Assembly (NCBI GenBank): GCA_035630755.1
Contig: DASQKC010000044.1
Location: 1-40,262 of the forward strand
Length of the DNA stretch: 40,262 nt
Direction: 5' to 3'
DNA from: Actinomycetota bacterium
Lineage (GTDB): Bacteria; Actinomycetota; UBA4738; HRBIN12
The position numbers were made by a program, and so were the translations under genes. Position 1 is the first letter of the stretch. Every line of letters begins with the position of its first letter. The notes beneath the pieces are model-generated. The model searched no databases. It worked only from the letters and a program-made list of their open reading frames with translations, and was not told where the DNA came from. Shown piece by piece: positions 4,827-18,486 of the stretch.

Positions 4827-4845
4827 GACGTGGACCCTCCAGGTC

Positions 4846-5862: not shown

Positions 5863-6321
5863 TCAGCTCAACAGGTCGCAGATCTGGGTCGCGTGCCCGC
5901 GGTAGCTCTCGACGATGGCGAAGCCCATGTCGTCCAGCTCCCCGAACGTGATGTGGCCCGTCACGATGGCCCACCCGGTCCCCGCGATGGGCGCGGCCCA
6001 GCGGCCGGTGCCCATCGAGGAGCCGTCGGCGAAGTAGAACGTCGGCCCCGCGATCGCGAACGTCCTGGACCCCTCACCGTCCAGCCTCGTCCACGTGACG
6101 AACAACTTCCCGAGGGACATCGCGGTCCCGTCGTCGAACTCGATCAGGTGCGTCTTGCCTTGGACCGTCGCCTCCAGCGCGAAGTCGCAGATATCCGGGA
6201 ACGGGATCACCACCTCGAAGGGTTCTCCGCCGCTCTTCGTCGGCTTCCCGGCGATCGCGGGTGCCGCCGTCATCGCAACCGCCACGGTGACGAGCGCGGC
6301 GCATGCCAGTAGGCGCCTCAT
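5863..6321 (-). CDS. hypothetical secreted protein
   Basis: MRRLLACAALVTVAVAMTAAPAIAG is a signal peptide. The ATG at 6321 is preceded by a GGGAGGGG Shine-Dalgarno. No family recognised. Confidence 0.55.
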   Translation of the reverse strand: MRRLLACAALVTVAVAMTAAPAIAGKPTKSGGEPFEVVIPFPDICDFALEATVQGKTHLIEFDDGTAMSLGKLFVTWTRLDGEGSRTFAIAGPTFYFADGSSMGTGRWAAPIAGTGWAIVTGHITFGELDDMGFAIVESYRGHATQICDLLS

Positions 6322-6465
6322 AAACAATCCCCTCCCTCTCGTCGGTCGAACGACGCGACCGACCGCTCGACCGTATCGTTGCCCGGCAACCAGACGCAAG
6401 CCCGTGGAGCGGTCGCGAGGATCGATTTGCGCCGACAGGCGTTACCGGCCAGGATGCCCAAACGT

Positions 6466-6660
6466 ATGAGCATCTACCGATTGATCAGGGCAGAGTTCTC
6501 GGTCGACCATGGACGCGAGTGGTGGACGCTCACGTTCGACGATGGCACGGGCCGGGCGATGGTCCGTGCGCCCGAGCCGCCGCCCGAGCCGTTCACGTTG
6601 CTCGACCGTCGCAAGCTCTACTCCGAGCGAGAGCTCGACCGGTTGCGCGCCTCGTCCTGA
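6466..6660 (+). CDS. hypothetical small protein (64 aa)
   Basis: ATG-initiated ORF with reasonable third-position G/C usage. No homology recognised. Confidence 0.3.
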   Translation: MSIYRLIRAEFSVDHGREWWTLTFDDGTGRAMVRAPEPPPEPFTLLDRRKLYSERELDRLRASS

Positions 6661-6694
6661 GGCTCCGGCCTCGGGCACGCTGTACGGTCGGTGC

Positions 6695-7261
6695 ATGAGC
6701 AAGGTCGTGTACTTCACCGCCTGCACGCTCGATGGGTTCATCGCCGATGAACACAACTCGCTCGACTGGCTCTTCGAGACGCCGCACAGCGACCACGAGT
6801 CATCGTGGGACGAGTTCATCGGGGCCGTGGGCCCGATGTGCATGGGCCGCACGACGTACGAGTGGATGCTCGCCCACCATCCCGACCTCCTGACCGGTCC
6901 CGAGCGATGGGCGGCGTTCTACGGCGACCGTCCCGCGTGGGTGTTCACCCATCGCACGGACCTGCCGTCGGTCGTGGGCGCGGACATCCGGTTCGTGCAG
7001 GGCGATGTCCGTCCGGTGCACGACGAGATGCGGGCACGTCGGGACGGCGACGTGTGGATCATCGGGGGCGGCGACCTCGTGGGGCAGTTCGACGACGCCG
7101 GCCTCCTCGATCGCGTGATCCTCGGCGTGTGCCCGGTGACCCTCGGTGCAGGAGCGCCGCTGCTGCCGCGACGGATCACCTCCACGCGGATGCGCGTGAC
7201 CGACGTACGTCAGGAAGCGCAACAGGTCCGGATCGTGCTGGACCTGGACCGGAGGACCTAG
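6695..7261 (+). CDS. dihydrofolate reductase-family protein (RibD C-terminal domain type)
   Basis: 188 aa. MSKVVYFTACTLDGFIAD...MGRTTYEWM...WIIGGGDLVGQF fits the RibD_C/YyaP-like pattern. Start taken at the ATG at 6695 within the longer track ORF. Confidence 0.75.
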   Translation: MSKVVYFTACTLDGFIADEHNSLDWLFETPHSDHESSWDEFIGAVGPMCMGRTTYEWMLAHHPDLLTGPERWAAFYGDRPAWVFTHRTDLPSVVGADIRFVQGDVRPVHDEMRARRDGDVWIIGGGDLVGQFDDAGLLDRVILGVCPVTLGAGAPLLPRRITSTRMRVTDVRQEAQQVRIVLDLDRRT

Positions 7262-7458
7262 CTAGCTTCAAGCCCGGCCAACCCGCCAGGCCAGCAACCT
7301 GACGGAGACCCCCCGATCCCCCGAGGTTGTGGCAGGTGGTCGGGCTCGGGAAAAACGGTAACGCTGCGCGATGTCCCTCGCCTATCGGATGACTCACCTA
7401 CAGGGAGAGCGGGGAGTCGTGGCCCCGAGTCATATCGCCTGGCTCGTGCGAGACTCCG

Positions 7459-8763
7459 TCATGGGGCACGCCAGGCCCACAGGTGCGCCCGCGCCTCAGG
7501 GTCGCCGATCGACACGACCTCGCCGTCCCGGATGAGGTTGTCGACCTGTTCGACGACGACCACGTCGCCCGCCGCGAACGCCTCACCGGCGATCGGGTAC
7601 GGGCCGTCCGCTCGAGGCTCCGGCGCTGGTCCGCCCACCGCGTCCTGCCACCCCACGTCCGGGTACCAGGCGTCCGGTCGTCCGCACTGCCAGGCGAAGA
7701 TCGCTCCTCGCGTCGCGACTCCCTCGACGTAGCACTCGCCGGAGTCGGGGGGTCCGTCGACCTCACGCCAACGGTCCGTGTCGGCCGCGTACTCCGCCCC
7801 TCCGCCGACGTAGTCCCACGCGACGATGCGGTCGCCGAGCATGACCACCTCGGTGGACTGCGGGATCAGTGGCGGGTCCTGGAGCACCCGCCACGAATCC
7901 GTGGAGGGCGAGTACGCCTCGGCGACGGCCGTCGGGGTCGTGGCGTGGTTCCCGGGCTGGAGCGCGGCCCCGACCACGATCATCTCCTCGCCCGTCCAGA
8001 TGCCGTTCGCGAGCGTCAACGGGAGCGGCGCGTCCGCGATCGTCCGCCACGCCCCCGAGACGGGATCCAGCGCAGCCCCTGAGACCGACGAGGGAGATCC
8101 TGCGCGGCCGCCGCCGAACACGATCAGCTCACTGCCGGTCCACGTCCAGGTCCCGCCGTAGTCGCTCTGATGCGGGGACGGGGGAAGCCCCGACCACGAA
8201 CCAGCGGCCGGATCGAAGGTGAGCATGGATCCGAAGTCTCCCTGAGGAACCTGGGTCTCCTGCAGGGCCGCCGTGCTCCCCCAGACGAGGAGCCGGTCAC
8301 CCGTCCAGATCCCATCAGCCTGGGCGAGTCCATGCGGCGCGATCGGGGTCTCCGACCACCGCCTCGAGACCGGGTCGAACGCGTAGCCGTCAGCGAACGG
8401 AGCCTCCGCGTTCCCATCCCGTGGCACCCCGCCCCAATAGATCAGCGAGTCGCCGGTCCAGACGACGGCAGCGCCGTTCCGGAACTCGGGCGGCGGTGGC
8501 AACTCCGTCCAGCCCGGCTCGATCGAGGACCACGGCGTGGCCGGAACCACCTCGTCGCTGGTCCGGGACGCGACGGCGATCCAGGCGAGCACCGCCACCG
8601 TTCCGAACAGGGCAAGGGCCACGACAGCGGCCGTGACGCGTCGTCCGGTCCGCGGCGGCTCGGGGACGGGTCGCATCGTGGGACCGGAGAGCCGCATCCG
8701 GATCTCGTCGGAGAGATCTGTCGTGGGGATGCGATCGAGCTCGCGCATCGTGGGGTCCATCAC
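7459..8763 (-). CDS. single-pass membrane protein with Kelch-type beta-propeller ectodomain (putative anti-sigma partner)
   Basis: 434 aa with a short cytoplasmic N-terminus and one TM helix (VTAAVVALALFGTVAVLAWIAV). Repeated W.G..L.V.GG motifs follow. Its start overlaps the stop of the ECF sigma gene by 4 nt. Confidence 0.7.
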   Translation of the reverse strand: MMDPTMRELDRIPTTDLSDEIRMRLSGPTMRPVPEPPRTGRRVTAAVVALALFGTVAVLAWIAVASRTSDEVVPATPWSSIEPGWTELPPPPEFRNGAAVVWTGDSLIYWGGVPRDGNAEAPFADGYAFDPVSRRWSETPIAPHGLAQADGIWTGDRLLVWGSTAALQETQVPQGDFGSMLTFDPAAGSWSGLPPSPHQSDYGGTWTWTGSELIVFGGGRAGSPSSVSGAALDPVSGAWRTIADAPLPLTLANGIWTGEEMIVVGAALQPGNHATTPTAVAEAYSPSTDSWRVLQDPPLIPQSTEVVMLGDRIVAWDYVGGGAEYAADTDRWREVDGPPDSGECYVEGVATRGAIFAWQCGRPDAWYPDVGWQDAVGGPAPEPRADGPYPIAGEAFAAGDVVVVEQVDNLIRDGEVVSIGDPEARAHLWAWRAP

Positions 8764-9242
8764 TCTCGTCCTTCCTCGTCGAGGAGCTGCCGGAGCCGTC
8801 GGCGTCCGCGCGACAGGTGGACCCGCACCGTGGCCCGGCCGATGCCGAGCATCTCGGCGATCTCCTCGGTCCGGCAGCCGGCGTAGCCGCGGAGCACGAG
8901 CACCGCGCGCTGGTTGGCGGGAAGCGTTCGGAGCGCCCGCAGGAGTCGCTCGGGGTCATCGTCGAGGGGCTGATCGACCGGAAGCTCGGGGAGCTGGTCC
9001 GAACGGCTCCGGTCGCGGAGCTCACCGCCGGCGATCCGGAAGGCGGCCGTCCAGACCCAGGCACGCGGGTCGTCGACCACGTCACCCCGCCGGAGACACT
9101 GGGCGAACGCCTCCGCGACCGCGTCGTCGGTGATCTCTCGGCTCTGCGTGTAGGCGAAGACCGCTCGCCACAGGCGGGCACCGTCGGTCTCGAAGACGGT
9201 GCCGAGATCATGTCCCGTTGCACGTTCGACGCCCTTCGACAT
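8760..9242 (-). CDS. ECF-type RNA polymerase sigma factor
   Basis: Region 2 (LWRAVFAYTQSREITDDAVAEAF) and region 4 HTH (LPANQRAVLVLRGYAGCRTEEIAEMLGIGRATVRVHLSRGRRRL) are present. Start taken at the ATG at 9242. Confidence 0.85.
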   Translation of the reverse strand: MSKGVERATGHDLGTVFETDGARLWRAVFAYTQSREITDDAVAEAFAQCLRRGDVVDDPRAWVWTAAFRIAGGELRDRSRSDQLPELPVDQPLDDDPERLLRALRTLPANQRAVLVLRGYAGCRTEEIAEMLGIGRATVRVHLSRGRRRLRQLLDEEGRE

Positions 9243-9362
9243 ACACCAGTAAGGGTCTCTCGAAACGAGAACGCGTACCTGAGCCCGGGATGACCCAGGG
9301 CTTCGGGTCGTATCCCCCCGTCGGCACCGCGGTCCCACGAGGGACAGCTCGAGATCGGCGGG

Positions 9363-10313
9363 CTACGTCGCGGTGTCGGCGTTCGCGATCCCGTAGATCC
9401 CTGTCGAGAAGGTCCCGTCACACCGGGAGCGTTCGAAGAGCAGCGTGGTCGAGTCGTCCAACTCCTCGGCGCCGAACGACGAGAACACGTCCCTCCCGTC
9501 CGCGATCGTGGCGATGACCTGCTCGCTGCCTCCGAGCGGGAGACGGACCATGCTCACGTCCGTGCCGCAGACCCACTCGTCGGCCTCGCCGCCCCGAGCG
9601 AAGTAGACCGTGCCGTCGCTCGTGACGGACGAGCTGTACTGCTGCCCACCCGGGTTGGGGATCGTCGTCGTCGCGTCCGTGCTGATCCGGTAGACGAACA
9701 CCTCGCAGTGCGTGAACACGCCCTCCACGTAACGGCAGCGCTCCCACGTCGCCCAGTCGCCGCTGACCTGGTTGGTGACCACGTAGTTGGTTCGGCTGCG
9801 CCGGCTCGAGAGGACCCGCTGCTCCGAGGTATCGAGGTTGAACAGGACGACCCTTGTCCGGTTCTCCCCTCCACGCCCGGTCCTCATGAAGAACAACCAG
9901 TCGCCCGAGAGCGCCGGTTGGGACTCGTCCGCGGCGGTGTTGACCCCGTCGGGGGGCGCGCTCCGCTCGCGCGTCCCGAGGTCGAAGAACCGCAAGTCCG
10001 CGCCGTGCCTCCGGAACCGGTCGTAGACGACGTCCGAGCCGTCGATCCCGACCCCCAGGCTCTCACCCGCCCCGTTCAGGTGGATCCTGGGCTCACCGGC
10101 CGGCTTGACGAACGCGTCCCATCCCGAGTCAAGGGTGAAGTCGACCCACGCGAAGGCGCCACCCGATGCAGCCGGCCCCTGCTCGGCCACGCCGGGGCGG
10201 TTTCGCACGACGACCGGCGTCGCAGCGAAGGCAGCTTCCGCCACCAGGATCAGGCACGCGAACGCGGCGACCGAAGCGAGGCGGGCGCCCGCGGAGCGAC
10301 GACGAAGGACCAT
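9363..10313 (-). CDS. hypothetical secreted protein (possible beta-propeller)
   Basis: Signal peptide MVLRRRSAGARLASVAAFACLILVAEAAFA from the ATG at 10313. Lies upstream of, and co-oriented with, the ECF sigma gene. Confidence 0.6.
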   Translation of the reverse strand: MVLRRRSAGARLASVAAFACLILVAEAAFAATPVVVRNRPGVAEQGPAASGGAFAWVDFTLDSGWDAFVKPAGEPRIHLNGAGESLGVGIDGSDVVYDRFRRHGADLRFFDLGTRERSAPPDGVNTAADESQPALSGDWLFFMRTGRGGENRTRVVLFNLDTSEQRVLSSRRSRTNYVVTNQVSGDWATWERCRYVEGVFTHCEVFVYRISTDATTTIPNPGGQQYSSSVTSDGTVYFARGGEADEWVCGTDVSMVRLPLGGSEQVIATIADGRDVFSSFGAEELDDSTTLLFERSRCDGTFSTGIYGIANADTAT

Positions 10314-10413
10314 CCGTCCGACTCCTCTCAGCGGGCACCGTCGGTGAGACGCGATGACGCTACCCCAGGATCGCCCCACGGCGCAACCCGGCGTCCACGG
10401 AAGCGCGACCCTC

Positions 10414-10450
10414 GGGTGGGAGATGAGGGGCTCGAACCCCCGCTCCTTGT
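10414..10450 (-). repeat. displaced 3' fragment of tRNA-Val (att-like direct repeat of 18414-18450)
   Basis: The reverse complement reads ACAAGGAG-CGGGGGTTCGAGCCCCTCA-TCTCCCA-CCC. It contains the 19-nt T-arm block CGGGGGTTCGAGCCCCTCA identical to the intact tRNA-Val, plus the anticodon-loop side and a diverged acceptor 3' strand. It has no 5' half. Confidence 0.6.
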
Positions 10451-10488
10451 GAGCGTCGTGAGGCCGGGGACGACGTGTGGATCACTCG

Positions 10489-11433
10489 TCACGTCGAAGT
10501 TGGCGGAGGCAGACCTTCGCTTGCTGGCTGGCTGGTTGGCGCGTGAGTGTCCGACGGTGAAGCAGCGCGTCTCCACATCAGGACGAAGAGGAGAACGGTC
10601 GTGATGCCGATGGTGTTGAGGATCGTGATCGACACCGTGACCAACGGGTCGGCTCCGAAGGGGAAGATCATCATCAGGAGCATCGGAGCGATGTTGCGTA
10701 CCGCCGTGGTCGTCTCGGTCGCATGCCTGATCCCCAGGTCATTGACTCGAAGACCGGAAACGAGAAGGTAGCCACACCCGAGGCCGATGAAGGGTCCGGC
10801 GATGGCCGCGATGTAGCTCTCGGTCCCCCAGGTCTGCACGAACAGATCCCAGTACGCAACGAGCGTGAAGTTGAGATTGAAGAGCAGACACAGGATCGCC
10901 ACGCGCACGGCCCACCGCGCCAATGACGGCGTCAGGTCGGGCCACCAGACCCTGAAGCCGCACCCGAGAACCAGCGGCAAGAGCAAGAAGAGCAGCAGCG
11001 GCCACGCAACATCCCAGGCAGAGACCGTGAGTTGCGCATCAACCGCATCGACGGCCAGGGGCAACCCTAGCGGGAGGGCGACGATGGTCGCGACGGTCAA
11101 GACCACTAACAGCAGGGTGGATACGCGGACATCCGCTTTGGCTAACCGGGCGAGGAGTGGAGCGAAAGGCATACCGGCGCACAGGGCTGCAACACAGAAC
11201 CCGACCTTGATCTCTGCAGGGATGGACGAGGCGATCGTCAGCAGATAGCCGATGAACAGGAGCGGGATGAGGACGAAGTTGATCGCCAACGCCCACACGG
11301 CGACCTTCCAATGGGCGAAGGCCTGTGCCAGCAGCTTGCCGACCGATAGCCTGAGACCCAACCCGAACGCGTTCAAGATCACGAAGAGCACCCCGAACCC
11401 GTTGATCAGGACGGTCTCACTGGACTGATTCAT
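10489..11433 (-). CDS. BASS/SBF-like (bile acid:sodium symporter family) membrane transporter
   Basis: About 10 TM segments. The motif AALCAGMPFAPLLARLAKADV resembles the family CPGG...A.GD region. The ATG at 11433 is preceded by GGGAGGG. Clearly lower G+C by eye. Confidence 0.65.
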   Translation of the reverse strand: MNQSSETVLINGFGVLFVILNAFGLGLRLSVGKLLAQAFAHWKVAVWALAINFVLIPLLFIGYLLTIASSIPAEIKVGFCVAALCAGMPFAPLLARLAKADVRVSTLLLVVLTVATIVALPLGLPLAVDAVDAQLTVSAWDVAWPLLLFLLLPLVLGCGFRVWWPDLTPSLARWAVRVAILCLLFNLNFTLVAYWDLFVQTWGTESYIAAIAGPFIGLGCGYLLVSGLRVNDLGIRHATETTTAVRNIAPMLLMMIFPFGADPLVTVSITILNTIGITTVLLFVLMWRRAASPSDTHAPTSQPASEGLPPPTST

Positions 11434-11687
11434 ATCCCTCCCGCTTACGTGGGGTGGACCGGGGAAGGCATCCGCTAGTGGTACTGGGGGTGGAGGTCGT
11501 GCGAGTGATCCCTCGCCAAGGTGATCGCCTCCTCCTTGGTCAGGTACCACCGTCGGCTCGTCTCGCTGCACGCCGCACACAACCACCGCCAGAGGCCCGC
11601 GACACCCTGCTCGGCACGTAGGTGGCTCATCGGACGCCAACGATACCCCGCGAGTTAGAGGTCGGCGCTTCCGCCTAGTGTTCGTGC

Positions 11688-11873
11688 ATGTCGCAGATGG
11701 CCGACCTGCTCGAGCGCGATCGCATCCGCTTGGGGTTCACGGTCGGCCAGATCGCCTACCGGCTCGGCATCTCGCCCGCGGAGTACCACTGCCTGATCGC
11801 CGGCGCACCGATCACGAGCTACGACACCTGGGAGCGGATCTCCGACCTGTACGGGTGGCCGGTAGCCCGCTAA
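11688..11873 (+). CDS. small Xre-type helix-turn-helix protein (intact copy of the head module)
   Basis: 61 aa. LLERDRIRLGFTVGQIAYRLGISPAEYHCLIAG fits the HTH_3 pattern. Its first ~70 nt recur at 13515 and 38023. Confidence 0.7.
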   Translation: MSQMADLLERDRIRLGFTVGQIAYRLGISPAEYHCLIAGAPITSYDTWERISDLYGWPVAR

Positions 11874-11883
11874 GTTCCGTTCG

Positions 11884-12222
11884 ATGACCGACAACTTCTC
11901 GACCGAGGTCAACGCAACGGACGAGGCCACGGTCATCCACGTCCGCGGCGAGATCGACATGGCGACCGCGGGACGCCTGCGAGACGCCATCGAACCCCAC
12001 ATGGGTCCCAAGCAGACCATCGTCTTGGACCTCTCCGAGGTCGAGTTCATGGACTCTTCGAGCCTGCACGTGCTCGTCCAAGCGCGCGGTCGACTCACCG
12101 AGAGCGGCGGCTCACTGGTCCTCCGCAACCCCTCGCGCGCCGCGCACCGGGTGCTCACCGTCGGCGGCGCCACCGATCTCCTCGAAACTGACGCCCGGGA
12201 TCACCCCTCAGATTCAAACTGA
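11884..12222 (+). CDS. STAS-domain anti-sigma-factor antagonist (SpoIIAA-like)
   Basis: 112 aa. VIHVRGEIDMATAGRLRDAI...IVLDLSEVEFMDSSSLHVLV carries the conserved phosphorylatable DSS motif. Confidence 0.8.
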   Translation: MTDNFSTEVNATDEATVIHVRGEIDMATAGRLRDAIEPHMGPKQTIVLDLSEVEFMDSSSLHVLVQARGRLTESGGSLVLRNPSRAAHRVLTVGGATDLLETDARDHPSDSN

Positions 12223-12325
12223 CCCACTATCTAGGTACCCTTCGCCGGATGAACCCCGCTGCGATCGGGGCCGGCTGGGACCTCGTGAAGCGGCTCGGCC
12301 AGACCACGCCCGCACCCTCCTCGCG

Positions 12326-12498
12326 GTGCTCGAGCTCCCCGACGATGCGCGGTGGGCGTTCACGTCCTCGATGTACCAGCGCGAGGACGGGCTGGCGCTC
12401 GCCGAGGTGCTGGCCGACGTGGAGTCTGACCTCACGAGTCTAACCTCACCGGCAAGACGCGGGAGCGGCTGATCGCGGGGCTGCATGCCGCCCTCGAC
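12326..12498 (+). pseudogene. tail-module copy B1: small ORF disrupted by a 14-bp tandem duplication
   Basis: From the GTG at 12326 it reads LELPDDARWAFTSSMYQREDGLALAEVLADVESDLT. The duplication GAGTCTGACCTCAC/GAGTCTAACCTCAC (12422-12449) then shifts the frame. The sequence TRERLIAGLHAALD continues out of frame. Confidence 0.5.
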
Positions 12499-12609
12499 GG
12501 CCGTGTCCCGACCAGTTCAGGGCGGAGAAACCGAACCCCGGGATGACCACGGCGCTGTCGGGCGAACGGCCGCCTTGACGCCGGAGCGGGAGAGAGTCAC
12601 GCCCTAGAC

Positions 12610-12900
12610 ATGCGCCGGGAATTGGTGCTGGTGGTTGTCGCGGCCGTCATCTTCGCCGCAGCGATCGGCGTCGCGACCGCGTATCCGAGTCATGCCTACC
12701 AGACGGCCACTGAGATGTCTGCGGCGCACACGTACTGCAGTACGGTCCGCTCATTCGAGGGTGTGGAGACCCCTTGGAAGGTTGATCGACGGTGGCCGCT
12801 GAGAGCCGGCACCCTTGTGTCCGGGCTGGTGTTGGGGCTGGGGTCCCTCGCGGCGGCCCGTGCGTCGCGAGCACCTGATGCAACGAGCCGGTGGACCTGA
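12610..12900 (+). CDS. hypothetical small membrane protein
   Basis: 96 aa with two hydrophobic segments (LVLVVVAAVIFAAAIGVATA and LVSGLVLGLGSLAAA). No homology recognised. Confidence 0.35.
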   Translation: MRRELVLVVVAAVIFAAAIGVATAYPSHAYQTATEMSAAHTYCSTVRSFEGVETPWKVDRRWPLRAGTLVSGLVLGLGSLAAARASRAPDATSRWT

Positions 12901-13142
12901 GCGGGCCGGGCCGGTGCTCAACGCGAAGGACTCAATCGGCCGCCACGCGCGGCTCGAGGACGACGACCGCCGTTCCCTGTGGGCGTCGCGCGGCGTAGTC
13001 GCGGTATGGTGGCGGCCGGGTCGTCGCTGAGGCAGCGGTTCGGTTCGCGCTCTGGTGCGGATCGTTCCACGCGCTGACCAGGCTCCCCCGGCGGTCGGGG
13101 AACCCTCCGATCCGCGAGCGATGCAAGGGCCCCGGACGTGCC

Positions 13143-13177
13143 CCCACCCGGCGAGCCCGGTAGGCTCGCCGGGTGGG
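13143..13177. promoter_or_regulatory. perfect 15-bp stem / 5-nt loop hairpin covering a start codon
   Basis: CCCACCCGGCGAGCC-cggta-GGCTCGCCGGGTGGG. The 3' arm contains the GTG at 13173 of the downstream ORF. Confidence 0.6.
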
Positions 13178-13460
13178 ACTCAGCCCCGAGGACGCGGCCG
13201 CTGCCTACCTGGTCGACGGCCCCCAACACGTGCGCGACGCGGTTGGCGCAGAGCCGCCCGGCCACTACCACGCGTGGTTCACCGACCTCGAAGGCGAGCG
13301 GTTCGAGCGCTACCTGACGGAGACGGGGCGGGCGTCGATCCTCGACCGCATCGATCGAGGCGAGCGTTCGTTCACCGCGTTCGAGCTCGAGGAGTGGACG
13401 GTAGCGCCACACATCGATGCGCTCCTGGCCCGCTACGACTCGGAGGCCGGCGAAGGCTGA
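13173..13460 (+). CDS. hypothetical protein (95 aa)
   Basis: ORF with good G+C third-position usage. No family recognised. The GTG start is buried in the hairpin at 13143-13177. Confidence 0.45.
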   Translation: MGLSPEDAAAAYLVDGPQHVRDAVGAEPPGHYHAWFTDLEGERFERYLTETGRASILDRIDRGERSFTAFELEEWTVAPHIDALLARYDSEAGEG

Positions 13461-13514
13461 CCGCGGCGCGACGATCGCGCGCGACATCGCCGCGACCCTG
13501 GCGTCACGCGCGCC

Positions 13515-13612
13515 ATGTCGCAGATGGCCGACCTCCTCGAGCGCGATCGCGAGCGGATGGGGTTCACGGTCGGCCAGGCCGCCTGATAGCGGGACTGCAC
13601 GCGGCGCTCGAC
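13515..13612 (+). pseudogene. head::tail fusion remnant (A2::B2, no cargo)
   Basis: ATGTCGCAGATGGCCGACCTCCTCGAGCGCGATCGC...GGGTTCACGGTCGGCCAGGCCGCC is head-module sequence (23 codons). It runs directly and out of frame into CTGATAGCGGGACTGCACGCGGCGCTCGAC, the tail-module end (LIAGLHAALD). Confidence 0.55.
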
Positions 13613-13635
13613 CAGGCGCCGCTAGGGTGACTGGG

Positions 13636-14133
13636 ATGAGCGAAGGGATCGAAGTGGTCGAAGCCACCGTGGACGACTGGGCTCGCGTGAAGGATGTGCG
13701 CCTCCGCGCCCTGGCGGATGCGCCCGAAGCGTTCGCGCGGCGGCTGGAGGACGAACGAGAACGGGCGCCCTCGGAGTGGCGGGCTCGGCTGGAGAACCCC
13801 GACGCCGCCACCTTCCTCGCGGTGGCCGATGGAGCGACGGTCGGAATGGCCGGTGTGTTCGTCGCAGCGGACGACGATACCTTGCGCAACTCGTCTCGAT
13901 GTGGGTTGCCTCGGAGTTCCGGCGAAGCGGGACGGGAAGGGCGCTCGGTCAAGCCGTCCTCGATTGGTCACGCGCCCCGGGACCTCCCCGTTGAGTTGTG
14001 GGTCACCGAGACGAGCCTGCCCGCACGGAGCCTCTACGAGGGGCTCGGGTTCTCCGCCTCAGGCGAAGAGCAACCGCTTCCCTCCGATCCACGACTGAAC
14101 GTGGTCCAAATGGTCAGGAGCGGGAGCGGTTGA
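13636..14133 (+). pseudogene. GNAT N-acetyltransferase with two compensating frameshifts
   Basis: Frame 1 gives MSEGIEVVEATVDDWARVKDVRLRAL...VFVAADDD. The acetyl-CoA motif segment AQLVSMWVASEFRRSGTGRALGQAVLDW is readable only in another frame (about 13880-13985). Frame 1 then resumes with VELWVTETSLPARSLYEGLGF. The stop TGA at 14131-14133 lies inside tail module B3. Confidence 0.6.
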
Positions 14134-14141
14134 TCGCGGGG
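14119..14141 (+). repeat. tail-module copy B3 (core only)
   Basis: AGCGGGAGCGGTTGATCGCGGGG has one mismatch to the core. It is flanked by the GNAT pseudogene stop and by the DUF1345 GTG start at 14146. Confidence 0.6.
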
Positions 14142-14145
14142 TTAG

Positions 14146-14817
14146 GTGACCGCGCGTAGCATCAACCGGGTGGAGGAGGTCCGAGGCGAGCCCCGGTGGC
14201 CGATGACGCTCACCGTCGTGTTCATCATCGTGCTGATCAGCCTGTTGCCCGAGCGCTTGAGCCCCCTGCCGACGTGGGTGTTCCCGGGCATGCTAACGAT
14301 CCTGCTGATCGCGCTCGTCGCCACCGATCCCGGCAAGATCACGAAGACGGAACGGGCGCTGCGCTGGCTCTCGATCGCCCTCGTCGTCGTGCTGGCCACG
14401 AGCGCGCTCTCCGCGACGGTGCTGCTGATCCGCGATCTGATCGAGGGTTCCCCGATCACGGCGAACGGGACGACGCTGCTCGCGACCGGGATGTCCGTCT
14501 GGGCGATCAACATCGTGGCGTTCGCGCTGCTGTATTGGGAGTTCGACTGCGGCGGACCGGCGGTGCGTGCCCATGGGATGCCCCCGTCCCCGGATCTCGC
14601 GTTCCCGCAGCAACTGAACCCTGAGGTCGCGCCGCTCGCGTGGCGGCCGCAGTTCGTCGACTATCTGTACGTGGGGATCACGGACGCGGTGGCGTTCAGC
14701 CCCACGGACGCGATGCCGCTCGCTCCCTGGGCGAAGGTCGCGATGGCGATCGAAGGAGTGACCTCCCTCGTGATCCTGGGCCTGGTGGTCGCCCGCGCCG
14801 TCAACGTCTTCACGTGA
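14146..14817 (+). CDS. DUF1345-type integral membrane protein
   Basis: 223 aa. EPRWPMTLTVVFIIVL..., four or more TM helices and WEFDCGGP...FVDYLYVGITDAVAFSPTD resemble DUF1345. Confidence 0.65.
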   Translation: MTARSINRVEEVRGEPRWPMTLTVVFIIVLISLLPERLSPLPTWVFPGMLTILLIALVATDPGKITKTERALRWLSIALVVVLATSALSATVLLIRDLIEGSPITANGTTLLATGMSVWAINIVAFALLYWEFDCGGPAVRAHGMPPSPDLAFPQQLNPEVAPLAWRPQFVDYLYVGITDAVAFSPTDAMPLAPWAKVAMAIEGVTSLVILGLVVARAVNVFT

Positions 14818-14821
14818 TGCG

Positions 14822-14865
14822 CCGCGGGAGCGGCTGATCGCGCGCTGCGAGCCGCGCTCGGATGA
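14822..14865 (+). repeat. tail-module copy B4
   Basis: CCGCGGGAGCGGCTGATCGCG-CGCTGCGAGCCGCGCTCGGATGA starts 5 nt after the DUF1345 stop. It has a 2-nt gap relative to the consensus tail. Confidence 0.6.
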
Positions 14866-14911
14866 TGCCCAGTGATGCCGTCGGTCATGAGCGGATCATA
14901 GTGTTCACCCG

Positions 14912-15831
14912 ATGAACCGGACGGGGAGAGCGCACGAGGTCGAACCGACGCCCACGGACATCTCGGTCGCCCTCCGCGTGCGCGCGGAGATCGGAGAGTC
15001 GCCCGTGTGGAGCGAGTTGACCGAGGAGCTCTACCTCGTCGACATCGCCGGGCAGGCGGTCCATCGGTACCGCCCGTCGGACGGTCGTCATCAACGGTTC
15101 GGGCTGCCGGATCAGGTGACCTCCGTCTCGATCCGTGAGCGGGGCGGGCTCGCCCTCTCGCTCCGCAAGACGTTCGCGTTCTTCGATCCGGATACCGGCG
15201 ACCTGGAGGTCCTCGACGATCCCGAGCCCGACCGCCCGGGGAACCGGTTCAACGATGCCCGGTGCGATCCGCAGGGACGGCTCTGGGCGGGCACGATGAG
15301 CGCCGACGACTGGTGGGCACCGACCGGCGCCGTGTACCGGCTCGATGCCGATCGACGGAGCACGCGCATGATCGACGACGTCCGGTGCTCGAACGGGACC
15401 GGATGGAGTCCCGACGGTCGCACGATGTACCACACGCAGAGCTTCCGCTACGCGATCGACGCCTACGACTTCGATCCCGAAACCGGCACGATCGCGAACG
15501 CGCGACCCTTCGTGACGCTCCCGCCAGAAGGCGGTGGCTTCCCCGACGGCCTGACGGTGGACGAGGAGGGGTTCGTCTGGAGCGCGCAGCCCATCTACGG
15601 ACGTCTCGTCCGATACGACCCGGAGGGCGGAATCGACCGGATCATCTCGCTCCCAGTCTCTCGCGAGGGACCAGCTGCGCCTTCGGGGGTCCCGACCTCC
15701 GCACCCTCTACATCACGACCGCCACCGAGACGCTGACGGCGCCCCAGCTCGCGGAGGAGCCGCTCGCCGGGAGCGTGCTCGCTTGCATGCCGGGGACCCC
15801 GGGCATGCCCGCGCCGCTGTTCGCCGGCTGA
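14912..15831 (+). pseudogene. SMP-30/gluconolactonase/LRE-like protein with a 1-nt frameshift near 15665
   Basis: GESPVWSELTEELYLVDIAGQAVHRY and following blades are in frame 1 up to ...RIISLPVS. The family C-terminal motif TSCAFGGPDLRTLYITTA is readable only in the frame of track ORF 15262-15831. A sequencing error cannot be excluded. Confidence 0.65.
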
Positions 15832-15973
15832 CCGGGACCAGGTAGGTTAGCGACCGACCGCCACCTGGTACTCCTGCAACGAGGCCGCGCACCGGGCGGG
15901 GGTCGACGCCTCGTACCTGGAACCACTGGTTGGAGTGGACCTGAGAAGGACTGCGTAGCGAGGAGAATCGCCA

Positions 15974-16540
15974 ATGCCCAAGGTAGTGCTGTACACGCTG
16001 ATGTCACTAGACGGAGCCGTCGACGATCCGCGGCGCTACTTCCCGGACAGCACACGCATGGTCGCCGGCCCACCGGTGTTCGACCCGGTGATGGCCGACC
16101 TGGAGGCGCGGTTGATCGGCAACCAGGATGCGGTGCTGCTGGGTCGTAACACGTTCGACGAGTGGTCGCGCTACTGGCCGACGTCCGACGAGCAGCCGTT
16201 CGCCGACTTCATCAACGGCACCAAGAAGTACGTCGTCACGTCGACGCCACTGACGGATCAGTGGGGTCCCGCAGAGGCATTGGCCGGTCCGGTAGCCGAC
16301 ATCGTCGATGGCCTCAAGGCTCGCGTCGGCGGTGACATCGGCATCCACGGCAGCATCACGTTGGCGCAGTCTCTCCTCGCCGCGGGACTCGTCGACGAGT
16401 TGCAGCTGGCGGTCGGTCCGGTCCTGGATCCCATGGGCCGACGGCTGTTCGCGGGCCTCGGCGACTCGCGCCAGCTGGACCTGCAGAGTGCGACCCCCAC
16501 GCCAGGCGGCACCGTCTGGATCACCTACCGCGTCCCGTGA
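15974..16540 (+). CDS. dihydrofolate reductase-family protein (RibD C-terminal domain type)
   Basis: 188 aa. MPKVVLYTLMSLDGAVDD...LLGRNTFDEW...IHGSITLAQSLL. A distant paralogue of 6695-7261. Confidence 0.75.
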   Translation: MPKVVLYTLMSLDGAVDDPRRYFPDSTRMVAGPPVFDPVMADLEARLIGNQDAVLLGRNTFDEWSRYWPTSDEQPFADFINGTKKYVVTSTPLTDQWGPAEALAGPVADIVDGLKARVGGDIGIHGSITLAQSLLAAGLVDELQLAVGPVLDPMGRRLFAGLGDSRQLDLQSATPTPGGTVWITYRVP

Positions 16541-16582
16541 CCTTATGCGCCGCCTTGGGCGCATCCGACTAACCGCACCATC

Positions 16583-16733
16583 GTGCGGGCCCCACACGGC
16601 GGCGGTTTCATCTCGTCGATGTACCTCCGCGACGACGGCGAGTGGCTCGCCGAGGTGCTGGCCGACGAGGAGCAGACCTCACCGGAAGACGCGGGAGCGG
16701 CTGATCGCGGGGCTGCGGGCGGCGTTGGACTAG
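16583..16733 (+). pseudogene. tail-module copy B5: near full-length small ORF with two 1-nt deletions
   Basis: From the GTG at 16583 it reads RAPHGGGFISSMYLRDDGEWLAEVLADEEQ. The frame is then lost: GAGCAG-ACCTCACCGG-AAGACG against consensus GAGCAGGACCTCACCGGCAAGACG. TRERLIAGLRAALD-TAG follows in another frame. Confidence 0.55.
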
Positions 16734-17025
16734 GCCCCAGCTTGGGTGGGCCCATCGAAGTGATGCGGACGGAGATCGACCTTGACCTGGGTCGACCGGA
16801 CGCCATGGCAGTGCAGGCCGAGAAGCACTTCGCTCTCGCCGACGCCTGCGACTCCCCGCTGCTGGTCGATCCGTCCTGGCGGGCCGCGGCGGCGTTCACC
16901 GCGACGCCGCTGTGGCCCTCGTCCGCGTCGCTCGGATGATCGAGCGTCGGCAGAAGCGGCACGCCGGCGCCCGGTCCAAGCATTCAGATCTTCCCGACCG
17001 CTACCACTGCGTACGCGTCGCGCTG

Positions 17026-17232
17026 ATGGATCACAAGTACGAGGTCCGCTTCGTCAGGGGCGAGCCGGAGACCCCGCCGACCAAGGACGAGCCGATCGCG
17101 ATCGCCCGCGAGGCCGCCCGCAAGCTGGGCGTCCCGAACGCCGAGAGCGAGCCGCTCTACCGGGTGGGCAGGAACTCCCACACCGGTGAGGTCTGGGCCT
17201 ACGTGGAGTGGACCTGGGAGGGGCTTCGGTAA
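17026..17232 (+). CDS. small conserved hypothetical protein (68 aa), paralogue of 5582-5788
   Basis: Translates as MDHKYEVRF...ARKLGVPNAESEPLYRVGRNSHTGEVWAYVEWTWEGLR. The ATG at 17026 is chosen by alignment with the paralogue. Confidence 0.55.
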   Translation: MDHKYEVRFVRGEPETPPTKDEPIAIAREAARKLGVPNAESEPLYRVGRNSHTGEVWAYVEWTWEGLR

Positions 17233-17245
17233 TCGTCGAACGAGA

Positions 17246-17635
17246 CTACGGGGTGTCGCCGCCTGGGATGTCGATGACCCGGCCTATGCGCAGCCGGCGT
17301 CCCCGCCATCCGTTGGCGGTAGCGGTGATGCTCGTCCTCTGCAGGCCCCTCAGCACGTCTTCCATGGAGACCGCCGCGTGGATCTGGACAACCTCGACCT
17401 CGTCGTCATCCTGGGGGGTGCCGTCGGGTCCCTGCGGCACCACGTAGGCCGTCGCGACGCCCATCCCCTCGAGGCTCGAGCCCCCGCCCACGTGGAAGGC
17501 CACCACGTGGTACTGCCCGTCCGGCAAGCCGAACAGGTCCTCGATGCTGTCCGGGTGGGGTCCGTCGAAGGCGCACGTCCCGATGTAGTCGTTGTACTGA
17601 GTCTCGGCGCGTTCCATGTGCCCCGGGGTGTCCAT
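17246..17635 (-). CDS. hypothetical protein (129 aa)
   Basis: ATG-initiated ORF convergent with 17026-17232, with acceptable codon usage. No family recognised. Confidence 0.45.
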   Translation of the reverse strand: MDTPGHMERAETQYNDYIGTCAFDGPHPDSIEDLFGLPDGQYHVVAFHVGGGSSLEGMGVATAYVVPQGPDGTPQDDDEVEVVQIHAAVSMEDVLRGLQRTSITATANGWRGRRLRIGRVIDIPGGDTP

Positions 17636-17731
17636 GATGCCTCCTTGCTAACGAGTGCTACGAACTCGCGCATACGAAACGATACGGGGACTTGGCGTCT
17701 CAAGGACGATTCTTGCGTGCTCGCGCACCCA

Positions 17732-17784
17732 GAGCAGGACCTCACCGGGAAGACGCGGAGTGGACCTGGGAGGGGCTCCGCTAA
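17732..17784 (+). pseudogene. chimeric remnant: tail-module 5' half fused to the 3' end of the 68-aa protein gene
   Basis: GAGCAGGACCTCACCGGGAAGACGCGG encodes EQDLTGKTR. It joins GAGTGGACCTGGGAGGGGCTCCGCTAA, which encodes EWTWEGLR-stop as at 17206-17232. The junction lies in a shared GGAG. Confidence 0.5.
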
Positions 17785-18233
17785 CTACCCTCCTCAACGG
17801 CCTCACCGGGGTGATGCATCGACAGCCGCCCCTCGCGCTCTGCATCGCGGTCAACGGTGAACCCGAGCCTCTCGTACAGAAGGCGAGCACGAGCGTTGTT
17901 GGTGAAGACGTGCAACCGGACCGGCCGACCCCGCCCGACCAGGTCCCGGATGAGAGCAGACCCGATGCCGCGACCCTGTGCTTCGGGCAGGATCTCGATT
18001 CGCCCCAGGTAGAGATGGTCGCCTTCGTCGCTCACGTCCAGGACGCCGATCGCCGTACCGTCGTCATCCTCGACGATCGAGAGCCGATCGGGCTCGAACC
18101 ATCCGGCATGGTGCCTGCGCTGGTGGTCGGCATCCCAGCCGCCGTACATGGACTCCACGTACTCGCGCATCGTCGCTTCATTCAGGTGGAAGCAGAACGC
18201 GTCGTCTCCAGCGGTCGCCGGGCGAAGCCTCAC
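17781..18233 (-). CDS. GNAT N-acetyltransferase
   Basis: 150 aa. LYLGRIEILPEAQGRGIGSALIRDLV...ARARLLYERLGFTV is the acetyl-CoA binding motif A/B pattern. Confidence 0.8.
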   Translation of the reverse strand: MRLRPATAGDDAFCFHLNEATMREYVESMYGGWDADHQRRHHAGWFEPDRLSIVEDDDGTAIGVLDVSDEGDHLYLGRIEILPEAQGRGIGSALIRDLVGRGRPVRLHVFTNNARARLLYERLGFTVDRDAEREGRLSMHHPGEAVEEGS

Positions 18234-18267
18234 CCTTCGGATCGTATCGGAGGCAGCATCCGTCGCT

Positions 18268-18339
18268 GACGCGGGAGTCCGACCTCCCGGCCAGACGCGG
18301 GAGCGGCTGATCTCTGGGCTGCACGCCGCGCCGGACTGA
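18268..18339 (+). repeat. tail-module copy B7 (tRNA-proximal)
   Basis: GACGCGGGAGTCCGACCTCCCGGCCAGACGCGGGAGCGGCTGATCTCTGGGCTGCACGCCGCGCCGGACTGA encodes ...TRERLISGLHAAPD-stop. It overlaps the 5' region of the minus-strand GNAT gene. Confidence 0.55.
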
Positions 18340-18393
18340 GGACTGGCACCGAAGCTGGTACCGATCCCGGACCCCCGCGGGGCCGGGTAAACC

Positions 18394-18411
18394 GAACCCG
18401 CAGGTAGATGG
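18394..18411 (+). repeat. 18-mer GAACCCGCAGGTAGATGG, copy next to tRNA-Val
   Basis: Identical to 37029-37046. Ends 2 nt from the 3' end of tRNA-Val. Confidence 0.8.
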
Positions 18412-18413
18412 GG

Positions 18414-18486
18414 TGGGCGGTGAGGGGCTCGAACCCCCGACCTTCTCCTTGTAAGGGAGACGCTCTACCAGCTGAGCTAACCGCCC
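18414..18486 (-). tRNA. tRNA-Val (anticodon TAC)
   Basis: The reverse complement folds as a 73-nt cloverleaf. Acceptor GGGCGGT/ACCGCCC, D arm GCTC-AGCTGGTA-GAGC, anticodon arm TCTCC-CTTACAA-GGAGA, variable AGGTC, T arm GGGGG-TTCGAGC-CCCTC, discriminator A. CCA is not encoded. Confidence 0.9.

What the first reader, a model, noticed from the sequence alone, without database searches (positions are those of the whole stretch)
10414..18486. tRNA-Val-linked ~8-kb island bounded by a displaced tRNA 3' fragment, without an integrase
The intact tRNA-Val(TAC) lies on the minus strand at 18414-18486. A same-orientation fragment at 10414-10450 reproduces its anticodon-loop side. That fragment has a 19-nt identical T-arm block (CGGGGGTTCGAGCCCCTCA) and a diverged acceptor 3' strand. 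This is the classical footprint of integration into a tRNA 3' end. The interior looks patchy in G+C by eye; the BASS transporter at 10489-11433 is clearly more A/T-rich. It holds accessory-type genes and at least three frameshifted genes. The tRNA-proximal position, where an integrase normally sits, is occupied by a GNAT gene and a tail-module remnant.
Basis: partly seen in the sequence, partly recalled or inferred. Interest (0 to 1): 0.6.

Follow-up and report, generated by a model that had tools for sequence, protein, structure and literature searches.

The report
Decayed integrase-less tRNA-Val genomic island
The stretch downstream of tRNA-Val is the eroded, immobile remnant of several mobile elements that inserted one after another into the tRNA's 3' end; this is a common kind of genomic scar, found here at a site that varies from 1 to 71 kb among related species.

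Summary
tRNA-Val(TAC) lies at 18412-18486 (-). A same-orientation copy of its last 44 nt lies at 10414-10453, with 36/39 matches, a 5-nt deletion and a 19-nt identical T-arm block. Its alignment score is about 10 SD above shuffled windows.

The insertion reading is supported, but the island is larger than proposed.
- In eight genomes of the genus, a histidine-phosphatase gene (window 4284-4796) is the conserved far flank of tRNA-Val. Its distance from the tRNA ranges from 1.1 to 71 kb.
- The variable region in the window is therefore about 4828-18411, and the fragment is an internal junction.
- Both halves are GC-poor. Segment 10451-18411 has lower GC than any of the 490 8-kb windows sampled from the assembly.
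- Six congeners carry 1-5 near-perfect 41-49-nt tRNA-Val 3' copies that bound small cassettes without integrases. A same-order genome has the canonical form: integrase next to the tRNA plus a perfect 48-nt repeat.

No tyrosine or serine recombinase, and no remnant of one, is present in the window. The interior is a mosaic of cargo genes, pseudogenes and truncated copies of small element backbone genes.

Verdict: accreted, decayed integrative elements resembling cis-mobilizable elements (CIMEs). This is a new member of a known kind, of modest interest.

The parts
18412..18486 (-). Intact tRNA-Val(TAC). It is the attL-side anchor of the hot spot.
   Evidence: ARAGORN and Rfam at 72 bits. The acceptor stem carries a G6:C67 pair where all relatives have C6:G67.
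18394..18411 (+). 18-nt motif M (GAACCCGCAGGTAGATGG) abutting the tRNA 3' end. It is a candidate integrase arm-type site.
   Evidence: An identical copy lies at 37029-37046 next to tRNA-Met, where 0.01 copies are expected by chance. The same motif follows tRNA-Leu in G017, G003 and G036, and in G036 an integrase gene is adjacent. Related CTGACCWGC / CCGCAGGTCAG arms flank the att copies in relatives.
18275..18339 (+). Tail-gene 3' remnant T7 (last ~20 codons), at the native tRNA-proximal end of the element.
   Evidence: The arrangement tail, ~60 nt, M, tRNA is the same in G017 and G003.
17781..18233 (-). GNAT acetyltransferase, intact (cargo).
   Evidence: Pfam Acetyltransf_1, 2.3e-15.
17663..17784 (+). 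Chimera of a tail fragment (T6) and the last 8 codons of the p68 gene.
17026..17635 (.). p68 small gene (17026-17232, +) and an unknown 129-aa ORF (17246-17635, -).
   Evidence: High GC3. No Pfam, PHROG or NCBIfam hit. A p68 paralog lies at 5585-5788.
16601..16733 (+). Tail-gene fragment T5 (last 44 codons, frameshifted).
15974..16540 (+). RibD_C-domain reductase, intact (cargo).
   Evidence: Pfam 2.7e-15.
14912..15831 (+). SMP-30/gluconolactonase pseudogene with one frameshift near 15660.
   Evidence: SGL profile positions 1-226 are in one frame and 223-246 in another.
14112..14860 (+). DUF1345 membrane-protein gene (14146-14817), bracketed by two short tail cores: T3 (14112-14145) and T4 (14816-14860).
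13515..14133 (+). Head::tail fusion (13515-13612), followed by a GNAT pseudogene with two frameshifts (13636-14133).
   Evidence: The read-through matches Acetyltransf_1 at 1e-14.
12505..12580 (+). Degenerate copy of the spacer plus half of motif M that follows tail T7. It is probably a second internal element boundary.
   Evidence: Local alignment to 18340-18490 scores 17.5 against 10.3 +/- 1.7 in 500 shuffles, none of which reached it.
11688..12499 (+). Element backbone operon: head (Xre-type HTH_31, 11688-11873), STAS anti-sigma antagonist (11884-12222), and a full-length tail gene T1 (~12250-12499) with an internal shift.
   Evidence: Pfam and NCBIfam and translations. Head and tail are overlapping adjacent genes in an unrelated MAG, L059. 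The tail family has 39 representatives among 1.84 billion proteins.
10489..11433 (-). BASS/SBF-family transporter gene, intact, 61.7% GC.
   Evidence: Pfam SBF_like and SBF. It occurs in only 1 of 40 relatives (G022), at 89.5% DNA identity over exactly the gene, in a different context.
10414..10453 (-). Decayed attR-type copy of tRNA-Val positions 32-75.
4828..10413 (.). Outer half of the variable region. Genes: secreted propeller-like protein (9363-10379, -), ECF sigma (8760-9338, -), Kelch membrane protein (7459-8763, -), RibD_C paralog (6485-7258, +), p68 paralog (5585-5788, -), and two unknown ORFs.
   Evidence: It is absent between tRNA-Val and the far flank in G017 and G004. GC is 68.9%, the 0.8th percentile. 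No att remnant is detectable.
4284..4827 (+). Conserved far flank: a His_Phos_1 gene plus a perfect 28-nt palindrome (4800-4827).
   Evidence: Pfam, orthologs syntenic with tRNA-Val in 8 genomes, palindrome.

Best explanation
Region 4828-18411 is what remains of several integrative elements. Tyrosine integrases inserted them one after another into the 3' end of tRNA-Val(TAC), and the elements then eroded.

Each insertion recombined an element-borne copy of the last ~41-49 nt of the tRNA (attP) with the gene (attB). This rebuilt the tRNA and displaced a 3' copy to the far side of the element. Sequence 10414-10453 is one such displaced copy. It is now mutated and lies between an inner block (10454-18411) and an older outer block (4828-10413) whose own distal copy is gone. 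A further weak boundary lies at about 12505-12580.

The integrase and all other mobility genes have been deleted. What survives:
- cargo genes: BASS transporter, STAS, DUF1345, RibD_C and GNAT;
- pseudogenes;
- multiple truncated or chimeric copies of small backbone genes of this element family: the Xre-type 'head', the 70-aa 'tail' and p68.

The truncated copies are best read as scars of deletion and illegitimate recombination between related neighbouring elements. The region can no longer excise on its own.

Shown here: the repeat and its significance, the absence of recombinases, the atypical composition, the hypervariability between two conserved anchors, att arrays in congeners, and a canonical integrase-bearing island at the same tRNA in the same order.

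Inferred: the order and number of insertions, the role of motif M as an integrase arm site, and the decay route.
For: - Repeat: significant, correctly oriented, and starting in the anticodon loop like the att copies of relatives, which cover tRNA positions 26-37 to the 3' end.
- Hot spot: the His_Phos_1 gene is the far flank at 1.1, 2, 5.6, 13.6, 15.9, 23, 40 and 71 kb in G017, G004, G014, G000, G012, G001, G019 and G011.
- att arrays: G001, G005, G006, G011, G019 and G021 carry 1-5 direct copies of 37-49 nt at 90-100% identity, and these arrays hold no recombinase.
- Canonical form: in G029, tRNA-Val has an integrase about 80-300 nt downstream (Pfam Phage_integrase, 1.7e-23) and a perfect 48-nt repeat 18 kb away. 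The same CTGACCAGC arm motif lies upstream of that repeat.
- Composition: the inner block has lower GC than any of the 490 8-kb windows of the assembly, and the outer block is at the 0.8th percentile. The flanks are at the 82nd and 97th percentiles.
- Accessory content: no island ORF has an ortholog at this site in 16 relatives. BASS is in 1 of 40 relatives, and there it sits elsewhere.
- Element family: G017 contig C131 carries an integrase, head, cargo that includes ECF sigma and a propeller protein, then tail. The arrangement tail, M, tRNA recurs in G017 and G003. In G036 the arrangement is integrase, M, tRNA-Leu.
- Second case in the same window: tRNA-Met has a 49-nt repeat (98% identity) 2.2 kb downstream, bounding a head-cargo-tail islet.
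- Internal boundary remnant after tail T1.
- Decay: three frameshifted cargo genes and microhomology chimeras.
Against: - No integrase or fragment of one is left in the window, so integrase-mediated insertion is inferred from relatives and not seen directly.
- No distal att copy marks the outer boundary near 4.8 kb. The outer block could therefore have arrived by another route, or be older resident DNA that G017 and G004 lost.
- Even the 'short' sites are not pristine. G017 has a CCTGCAGG-type motif right after the tRNA.
- The internal tail copies T2-T6 are not followed by M or by tRNA fragments. Simple tandem accretion therefore needs several extra deletions.
- Similar arrays of tail, p68 and head fragments recur in an independent metagenome contig (L062) and in G023. 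This hints at a more regular process than random decay.
- The assembly is a 74%-complete MAG, so an integrase acting in trans cannot be excluded.
Confidence: 0.8

Rival explanations
1. One reading: one ~8-kb island, bounded by tRNA-Val and the fragment at 10414-10450, with native chromosome to the left of the fragment.
For: The only detectable att copy lies at 10414-10453. The GC minimum lies inside 10.4-18.4 kb.
Against: - The conserved far flank resumes only at 4796, as shown by G017 and G004 at 1.1-2 kb and by six further genomes.
- Segment 4828-10413 is itself GC-poor and holds p68 and RibD_C paralogs of inner-block genes.
- Homologs of its secreted protein lie inside the tRNA-Val variable regions of G021 and G019, and in G017 on a contig (C128) that also carries an integrase gene.
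Confidence: 0.08
2. A regular cassette-capture system. Short gene-end modules act as recombination sites at which single genes or small gene sets are inserted by a recombinase encoded elsewhere. This would work like an integron but be anchored at a tRNA. The candidate sites are the tail core CGGGAGCGGCTGATCGCGGGGCTGC, the p68 3' end and, in relatives, the 41-49-nt tRNA-Val copies with their inverted arms.
For: - The DUF1345 gene is bracketed exactly, start codon to stop codon, by two copies of the ~22-nt tail core.
- The leftmost tail copy is full length and all copies to its right are co-oriented 3' fragments, which is the geometry of repeated insertion into a gene's 3' end.
- Single-gene cassettes of 0.9-4 kb lie between near-perfect att copies in relatives, for example att, adenylate cyclase, att in G011, with no recombinase in the arrays or, beyond two Xer-like genes, in four of those genomes.
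- Similar tail/p68 fragment arrays occur in L062 and head arrays in G023.
Against: - The 5' limits of the tail fragments vary from 25 to 130 nt, and two junctions are plain microhomology chimeras.
- No conserved arm motif flanks the internal tail cores.
- The tail core is amplified only in this one contig.
- Head and tail are an ordinary adjacent gene pair elsewhere, so repeated copies may simply be paralogous backbone or regulatory modules.
- Integrase-less att-bounded islands in tandem are already explained by decay plus accretion (PMC5704250, PMC3146451).
Confidence: 0.1
3. The fragment is a relic of a duplicated tRNA-Val gene or a chance T-arm look-alike, unrelated to any insertion.
For: T-arm sequences are conserved among tRNAs, and 11-nt T-arm matches occur elsewhere in the window.
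Against: - The alignment score is about 10 SD above the null.
- The match extends through the anticodon-loop side and the acceptor 3' strand specific to tRNA-Val.
- No 5'-half remnant is present.
- The start point and orientation match the att copies of six congeners.
Confidence: 0.02

Closest known systems
Cis-mobilizable elements (CIMEs) and tandem accretion of integrative elements (ICESt1/CIME of Streptococcus thermophilus; reviewed in PMC5704250)
   Same: [quoted passage not shown] Further elements insert at the same site, which gives tandem composites.
   Different: A CIME by definition keeps usable attL and attR sites. Here the distal copy carries a 5-nt deletion and 3 substitutions, the outermost copy is gone, and no helper element is present in the assembly. 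This is a fossil, not a mobilizable unit.
Dehalococcoides ssrA genomic islands (PMC3146451)
   Same: Many tandem islands lie downstream of one small-RNA gene, each bounded by a direct repeat of its 3' end, within a high-plasticity region between conserved anchors. About half lack an integration module. A conserved short motif sits next to each repeat.
   Different: The target there is tmRNA, with a 20-bp repeat and a serine recombinase (DsiB). Here the target is tRNA-Val, with 41-49-nt repeats. The integrases found in relatives are tyrosine recombinases, and no serine recombinase exists in the 9 genomes tested.
tRNA-targeting tyrosine-integrase islands and actinomycete integrative elements (pSAM2- and SLP1-type AICEs; from general knowledge)
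   Same: Integration is into the 3' part of a tRNA gene of an actinobacterium, with an identity segment running from the anticodon loop to the 3' end. G+C is atypical and the cargo is accessory.
   Different: No int, xis, rep or tra genes were found in any island ORF tested. Backbone remnants are instead a small Xre-type gene, a 70-aa four-helix protein and a 68-aa protein, none with a database family.
Integron cassette arrays
   Same: Co-oriented single-gene units are separated by copies of a short conserved sequence.
   Different: There is no intI, attI or attC-type structured site. Repeat lengths are variable, and some junctions are microhomology chimeras.

Membership tests
tRNA-integrated genomic island (tyrosine-integrase type) | Intact tRNA gene at one end | tested here: met
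   tRNA-Val(TAC) at 18412-18486.
tRNA-integrated genomic island (tyrosine-integrase type) | Direct repeat of the tRNA 3' part at the other end, in the same orientation | tested here: met
   Sequence 10414-10453: 36/39 matches plus a 5-nt gap, z of about 10. It lies inside the variable region, not at its outer edge.
tRNA-integrated genomic island (tyrosine-integrase type) | Integrase gene within the island | tested here: not met
   No PF00589 or PF00239 hit in the contig, and no tblastn remnant.
tRNA-integrated genomic island (tyrosine-integrase type) | Absent from the same site in related genomes (interrupted synteny) | tested here: met
   The far flank lies 1.1-2 kb from the tRNA in G017 and G004. 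Island ORFs are absent at the site in 16 relatives.
tRNA-integrated genomic island (tyrosine-integrase type) | Atypical base composition | tested here: met
   GC is 67.6%, lower than any of the 490 8-kb windows of the assembly.
Cis-mobilizable element (CIME) | No integration or transfer genes | tested here: met
Cis-mobilizable element (CIME) | attL and attR retained in recombination-competent form | tested here: inconclusive
   The attR copy is interrupted: the longest perfect identity is 19 nt, against 41-49 nt in relatives. Competence cannot be judged from sequence alone.
Cis-mobilizable element (CIME) | Mobilised in cis by an adjacent functional element | not testable with these tools
AICE (actinomycete integrative and conjugative element) | Replication (rep) and FtsK-like transfer (tra) genes | tested here: not met
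   Pfam scans of the GC3-supported ORFs tested in 4.8-18.4 kb show none.
Integron | intI integrase next to the array, and attC sites | tested here: not met
   No tyrosine recombinase lies in the contig. The repeats are gene 3' fragments of variable length. attC folding was not tested.

The most novel reading that the evidence does not exclude
In this actinobacterial genus, tRNA-Val and other tRNAs may anchor arrays of small units of one to a few genes. A recombinase encoded elsewhere would insert and swap these units at short conserved sites: 41-49-nt tRNA 3' copies flanked by CTGACCWGC / CCGCAGGTCAG arms and, inside the window's island, the 22-25-nt tail-gene core. This would be an integron-like capture system without a linked integrase. 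On this reading, the integrase-less state is the normal working state and not decay.
Probability: 0.1. Interest if true: 0.7.

Novelty: new member of a known kind. Interest (0 to 1): 0.3.

Why it matters
The region marks tRNA-Val(TAC) as a major gene-flux site in an uncultured actinobacterial genus. The interval between the tRNA and a conserved phosphatase gene ranges from 1.1 to 71 kb among eight species, and it carries transporters, acetyltransferases, sigma-factor modules and large adenylate-cyclase/ATPase regulators.

For annotation, the result shows that a single visible repeat can understate the extent of an island. It also shows that 'no integrase' is the rule for these sites in this genus.

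For the biology of mobile elements, it offers a set of natural att arrays with conserved arm motifs, and a small Xre-plus-70-aa-protein backbone module of unknown function. If the minority reading (cassette capture in trans) were right, it would be a new route of gene acquisition. The evidence here favours ordinary accretion and decay.

Tried and rejected
- Tail module as HicB-like antitoxin: rejected. Pfam, NCBIfam and PHROGs give no hit. The AlphaFold model (pLDDT 89) is a four-helix bundle with no significant PDB match.
- Tail module as the 3' remnant of an integrase gene, suggested by the G036 arrangement (integrase, M, tRNA) and a weak F..xxY resemblance: not supported. There is no Pfam signal even at E = 10, and in L059 the tail is an independent 70-aa ORF translationally coupled to the head gene.
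- Search for an outer att remnant in 4700-10400: nothing above background.
- Serine recombinases as the missing enzyme: none in 9 genomes.
- Whole-window tblastx against relatives: too noisy at 72% GC. It was replaced by GC3-filtered ORFs plus blastp.
- Genome-wide count of a short degenerate M core: uninformative, with 199 hits that are mostly coding.
- Rfam: only the two tRNAs.
- M- or tRNA-like sequence after the internal tails T2-T6: none.
- Homology of the G023 'tail-like' family to tail: weak only (hhalign E = 0.0026, probability 12%).

Full report
**Observation.** ARAGORN and Rfam place tRNA-Val(TAC) at 18412-18486 on the minus strand. On the same strand, 10414-10453 reads CTCACAAGGAG-----CGGGGGTTCGAGCCCCTCATCTCCCACC. 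The tRNA's last 44 nt read CTTACAAGGAGAAGGTCGGGGGTTCGAGCCCCTCACCGCCCACC. The copy runs from the anticodon loop to the 3' end. Its local-alignment score is 24.5, against 12.7 +/- 1.2 (maximum 16) in 200 Markov-simulated 40-kb windows. Within the window, blastn gives E = 2e-6 ungapped and 1.8e-5 gapped. No tRNA 5' half precedes it, and Rfam does not call it a tRNA.

**Composition and gene state.**
- The assembly is a 2.08-Mb, 189-contig MAG, 74% complete, at 72.3% GC.
- Segment 10451-18411 is 67.6% GC, below every one of 490 8-kb windows of the assembly. Segment 4828-10413 is 68.9% (0.8th percentile).
- The flanks 1-4796 and 18487-36949 are 73.8% and 74.8%.
- Intact cargo genes: BASS/SBF transporter (10489-11433, -), STAS anti-sigma antagonist (11884-12222), DUF1345 membrane protein (14146-14817), RibD_C reductase (15974-16540) and a GNAT (17781-18233, -).
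- Broken genes: the SGL gluconolactonase has one frameshift near 15660. A second GNAT (13636-14133) has two frameshifts, and its read-through hits Acetyltransf_1 at 1e-14.
- No tyrosine or serine recombinase is in the contig. tblastn with two integrases from relatives finds no remnant.

**Comparison with relatives: the empty-site test.**
- All 40 nearest genomes have the tRNA-Val region.
- In the closest relative, G017 (87-88% DNA identity around the tRNA), the order is amidohydrolase, CspA, tRNA-Val, one SDR gene, then orthologs of window genes 4284-4796 (His_Phos_1, 71% aa), 3848-4246 (globin) and 1705-3501 (amidohydrolase, 78%).
- The His_Phos_1 ortholog lies on the island side of tRNA-Val, in conserved orientation, at these distances: 1.1 kb (G017), 2 kb (G004), 5.6 kb (G014), 15.9 kb (G012), 23 kb (G001), 40 kb (G019) and 71 kb (G011). 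In the window the distance is 13.6 kb.
- The variable DNA in the window is therefore 4828-18411. The fragment at 10414-10453 sits inside it.
- None of the island ORFs has an ortholog at this site in 16 relatives.
- The BASS gene occurs in only one of 40 relatives (G022). There it shares 89.5% DNA identity over exactly the gene plus its ribosome-binding site, in an unrelated, tRNA-free context.

**The site is an integration hot spot.**
- In G001, G005, G006, G011, G019 and G021, the tRNA is followed by 1-5 direct copies of its last 37-49 nt. Most are 94-100% identical, and they start at tRNA positions 26-38. They bound units of 0.9-9.5 kb.
- These units carry, for example, an adenylate cyclase-AAA_16-TPR protein of about 1,100 aa, alpha/beta hydrolases, a homocysteine methyltransferase, an AI-2E transporter and a histidine kinase. 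They carry no recombinase.
- Most copies are preceded by CTGACC(A/T)GC..GTT(T/C)G and followed by GTT(T/C)CCGCAGGTCAG.
- In G029 (same order), the canonical form is present. A tyrosine integrase gene (Pfam 1.7e-23) starts roughly 80-300 nt downstream of tRNA-Val(TAC). A perfect 48-nt repeat lies 18 kb away and is preceded by the same CTGACCAGC motif.
- This ties the integrase-less arrays to integrase-bearing elements.

**The element family seen in the window.**
- The 18-mer GAACCCGCAGGTAGATGG abuts the tRNA-Val 3' end (18394-18411). An identical copy follows tRNA-Met at 37029-37046.
- tRNA-Met has its own 49-nt 3' repeat (98% identity) at 39242-39290. This bounds a 2.2-kb islet.
- About 55-75 nt from the motif lies the 3' end of a small gene, 'tail'. 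The same order (tail, spacer, motif, reverse-complemented tRNA) occurs at tRNA-Leu(CAA) in G017 and G003. In G036 an integrase 59% identical to one in G017 takes the tail's place next to tRNA-Leu(TAG).
- G017 contig C131 reads: integrase, cupin, truncated 'head' (Xre-type HTH_31), cargo that includes ECF sigma, anti-sigma and a propeller protein, then tail at the contig end.
- In an unrelated Actinomycetota MAG (L059), head and tail are adjacent genes with overlapping stop and start (ATGA), 7 kb from an integrase.
- Tail belongs to a rare family: 39 representatives among 1.84 billion proteins, one of them fused to a head-like N-terminus. The model is a confident four-helix bundle (pLDDT 89) without structural relatives.
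- Head, tail and a 68-aa protein (p68) occur in this assembly only on this contig, inside the two tRNA-linked regions and at 5585-5788.
- I infer that the 18-mer is an arm-type integrase site, and that head and tail are backbone (probably regulatory) genes of the elements. Neither inference is shown.

**Anatomy of the inner block.**
- Reading the plus strand: decayed att copy (10414-10453), BASS (-), a p68 3' scrap, head, STAS, and full-length tail T1.
- T1 is followed by a degenerate copy of the spacer and half of the 18-mer (12505-12580; score 17.5 against 10.3 +/- 1.7, 0 of 500 shuffles reaching it). This is a probable second internal boundary.
- Then follow: an unknown ORF, a head::tail fusion, the broken GNAT, tail core T3, DUF1345, tail core T4, broken SGL, RibD_C, tail fragment T5, p68, an unknown ORF (-), a tail::p68 chimera, GNAT (-), tail remnant T7, the 18-mer and the tRNA.
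- The tail fragments keep the 3' end, but their 5' limits vary from 25 to 130 nt. Two junctions are microhomology fusions.
- The exact 22-mer core is amplified only in this contig.

**Interpretation.** The best reading (confidence 0.8) is successive integrase-mediated insertions at tRNA-Val, followed by loss of integrases and att sites and by deletions or illegitimate recombination between related neighbouring elements. The literature describes this as accretion and decay to CIME-like remnants (PMC5704250). It also documents tandem arrays at one small-RNA gene, about half of them lacking an integration module and each carrying a conserved motif beside the repeat (Dehalococcoides ssrA islands, PMC3146451).

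The expectation that the integrase belonged at the tRNA-proximal end is probably also wrong: in this element type that end is natively occupied by tail.

**What remains open.**
- The outer block has no detectable distal att copy. Its mode of arrival is therefore inferred from synteny, composition and shared cargo types.
- The neat bracketing of DUF1345 by two tail cores, the single-gene att-bounded units in relatives whose genomes hold only two Xer-like recombinases, and the recurrence of tail/p68 or head arrays in an independent metagenome contig (L062, which ends in a CTGACCTGCGG motif plus a tRNA 3' fragment) and in G023 keep a minority reading alive. That reading is a trans-acting cassette-capture process (probability about 0.1).

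**Verdict.** This is a real but ordinary feature: an eroded, integrase-less, composite tRNA-Val island in a genus-wide hot spot. It is a new member of a known kind, with interest 0.3.

Noticed in passing
window 36950-39310: A second tRNA-linked islet. tRNA-Met(CAT) at 36950-37026 has a 49-nt 3' copy (98% identity) at 39242-39290. The 2.2 kb between holds a head gene split by a ~240-nt insert, an unannotated 183-aa gene and a tail fragment. CCGCAGGTAGA-type motifs lie on both sides of the copy, and an inverted one follows it.
   Followed up: partly
window 18394-18411 and 37029-37046; L043, L050, L055: The identical 18-mer GAACCCGCAGGTAGATGG abuts the 3' ends of two different tRNAs in opposite relative orientation. 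Close variants follow tRNA-Leu genes in three other genomes, once next to an integrase.
   Followed up: partly
L059 7782-8228; window 11688-12499: An Xre-type 61-aa HTH gene and a 70-aa four-helix protein gene form a translationally coupled pair. The 70-aa family is rare (39 representatives among 1.84 billion proteins), has no Pfam, NCBIfam or PHROG family, and is fused to the HTH in one representative (P0037).
   Followed up: partly
window 10478-11450 and G022:C8:29506-30470 (L061): The BASS transporter gene is shared at 89.5% DNA identity with one congener over exactly the ORF plus its ribosome-binding site. The flanks are unrelated in both genomes, which looks like a gene-sized horizontal transfer with no visible repeat or mobility gene.
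   Followed up: partly
L029, L035, L040 (G019, G021, G011): A ~1,100-aa zinc-ribbon, adenylate/guanylate cyclase, AAA_16, TPR protein recurs as cargo in tRNA-Val att-bounded units of three genomes (37-40% identity). In G011 it is the only gene between two att copies.
   Followed up: partly
L045 (G023:C136, 20 kb): At least six co-oriented copies or fragments of the head gene, and about six copies of a second small gene that weakly resembles tail, are interspersed with unrelated genes. No tRNA or att motif is present on the contig.
   Followed up: partly
L062 (JGI metagenome contig, 3.9 kb): In order: p68, a p68 fragment, a lipoprotein gene (-), a full tail gene, a lipoprotein gene (-), a tail fragment, and a DUF3800 gene. 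These are followed by GCTGACCTGCGGTTTC and a tRNA 3' fragment. This is the same array-like layout as window 16600-18340, in another organism.
   Followed up: partly
window 18412-18486: The tRNA-Val acceptor stem has G6:C67 where all 14 examined relatives have C6:G67. This is a compensatory double change next to the recombination zone.
   Followed up: no
genome contigs C33, C92, C53: Other tRNAs of the assembly show the same signs. tRNA-Arg(CCT) has a 29-nt 3' copy 0.7 kb downstream. tRNA-Thr(TGT) has a 31-nt copy 2.6 kb downstream. tRNA-Ala(GGC) is followed by CGCAGGTCAGAAGG just before a contig end; in G021 the same tRNA and motif are followed by an integrase.
   Followed up: partly
window 4800-4827: A perfect 28-nt palindrome lies immediately after the His_Phos_1 stop codon, at the point where synteny with relatives resumes. 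It is probably a terminator.
   Followed up: no
window 7459-10379: A module of ECF sigma, a Kelch-domain membrane protein and a secreted propeller-like protein. Homologs of the secreted protein (42-45% identity) lie inside the tRNA-Val variable regions of G019 and G021, and in G017 on a contig that also carries an integrase gene.
   Followed up: partly
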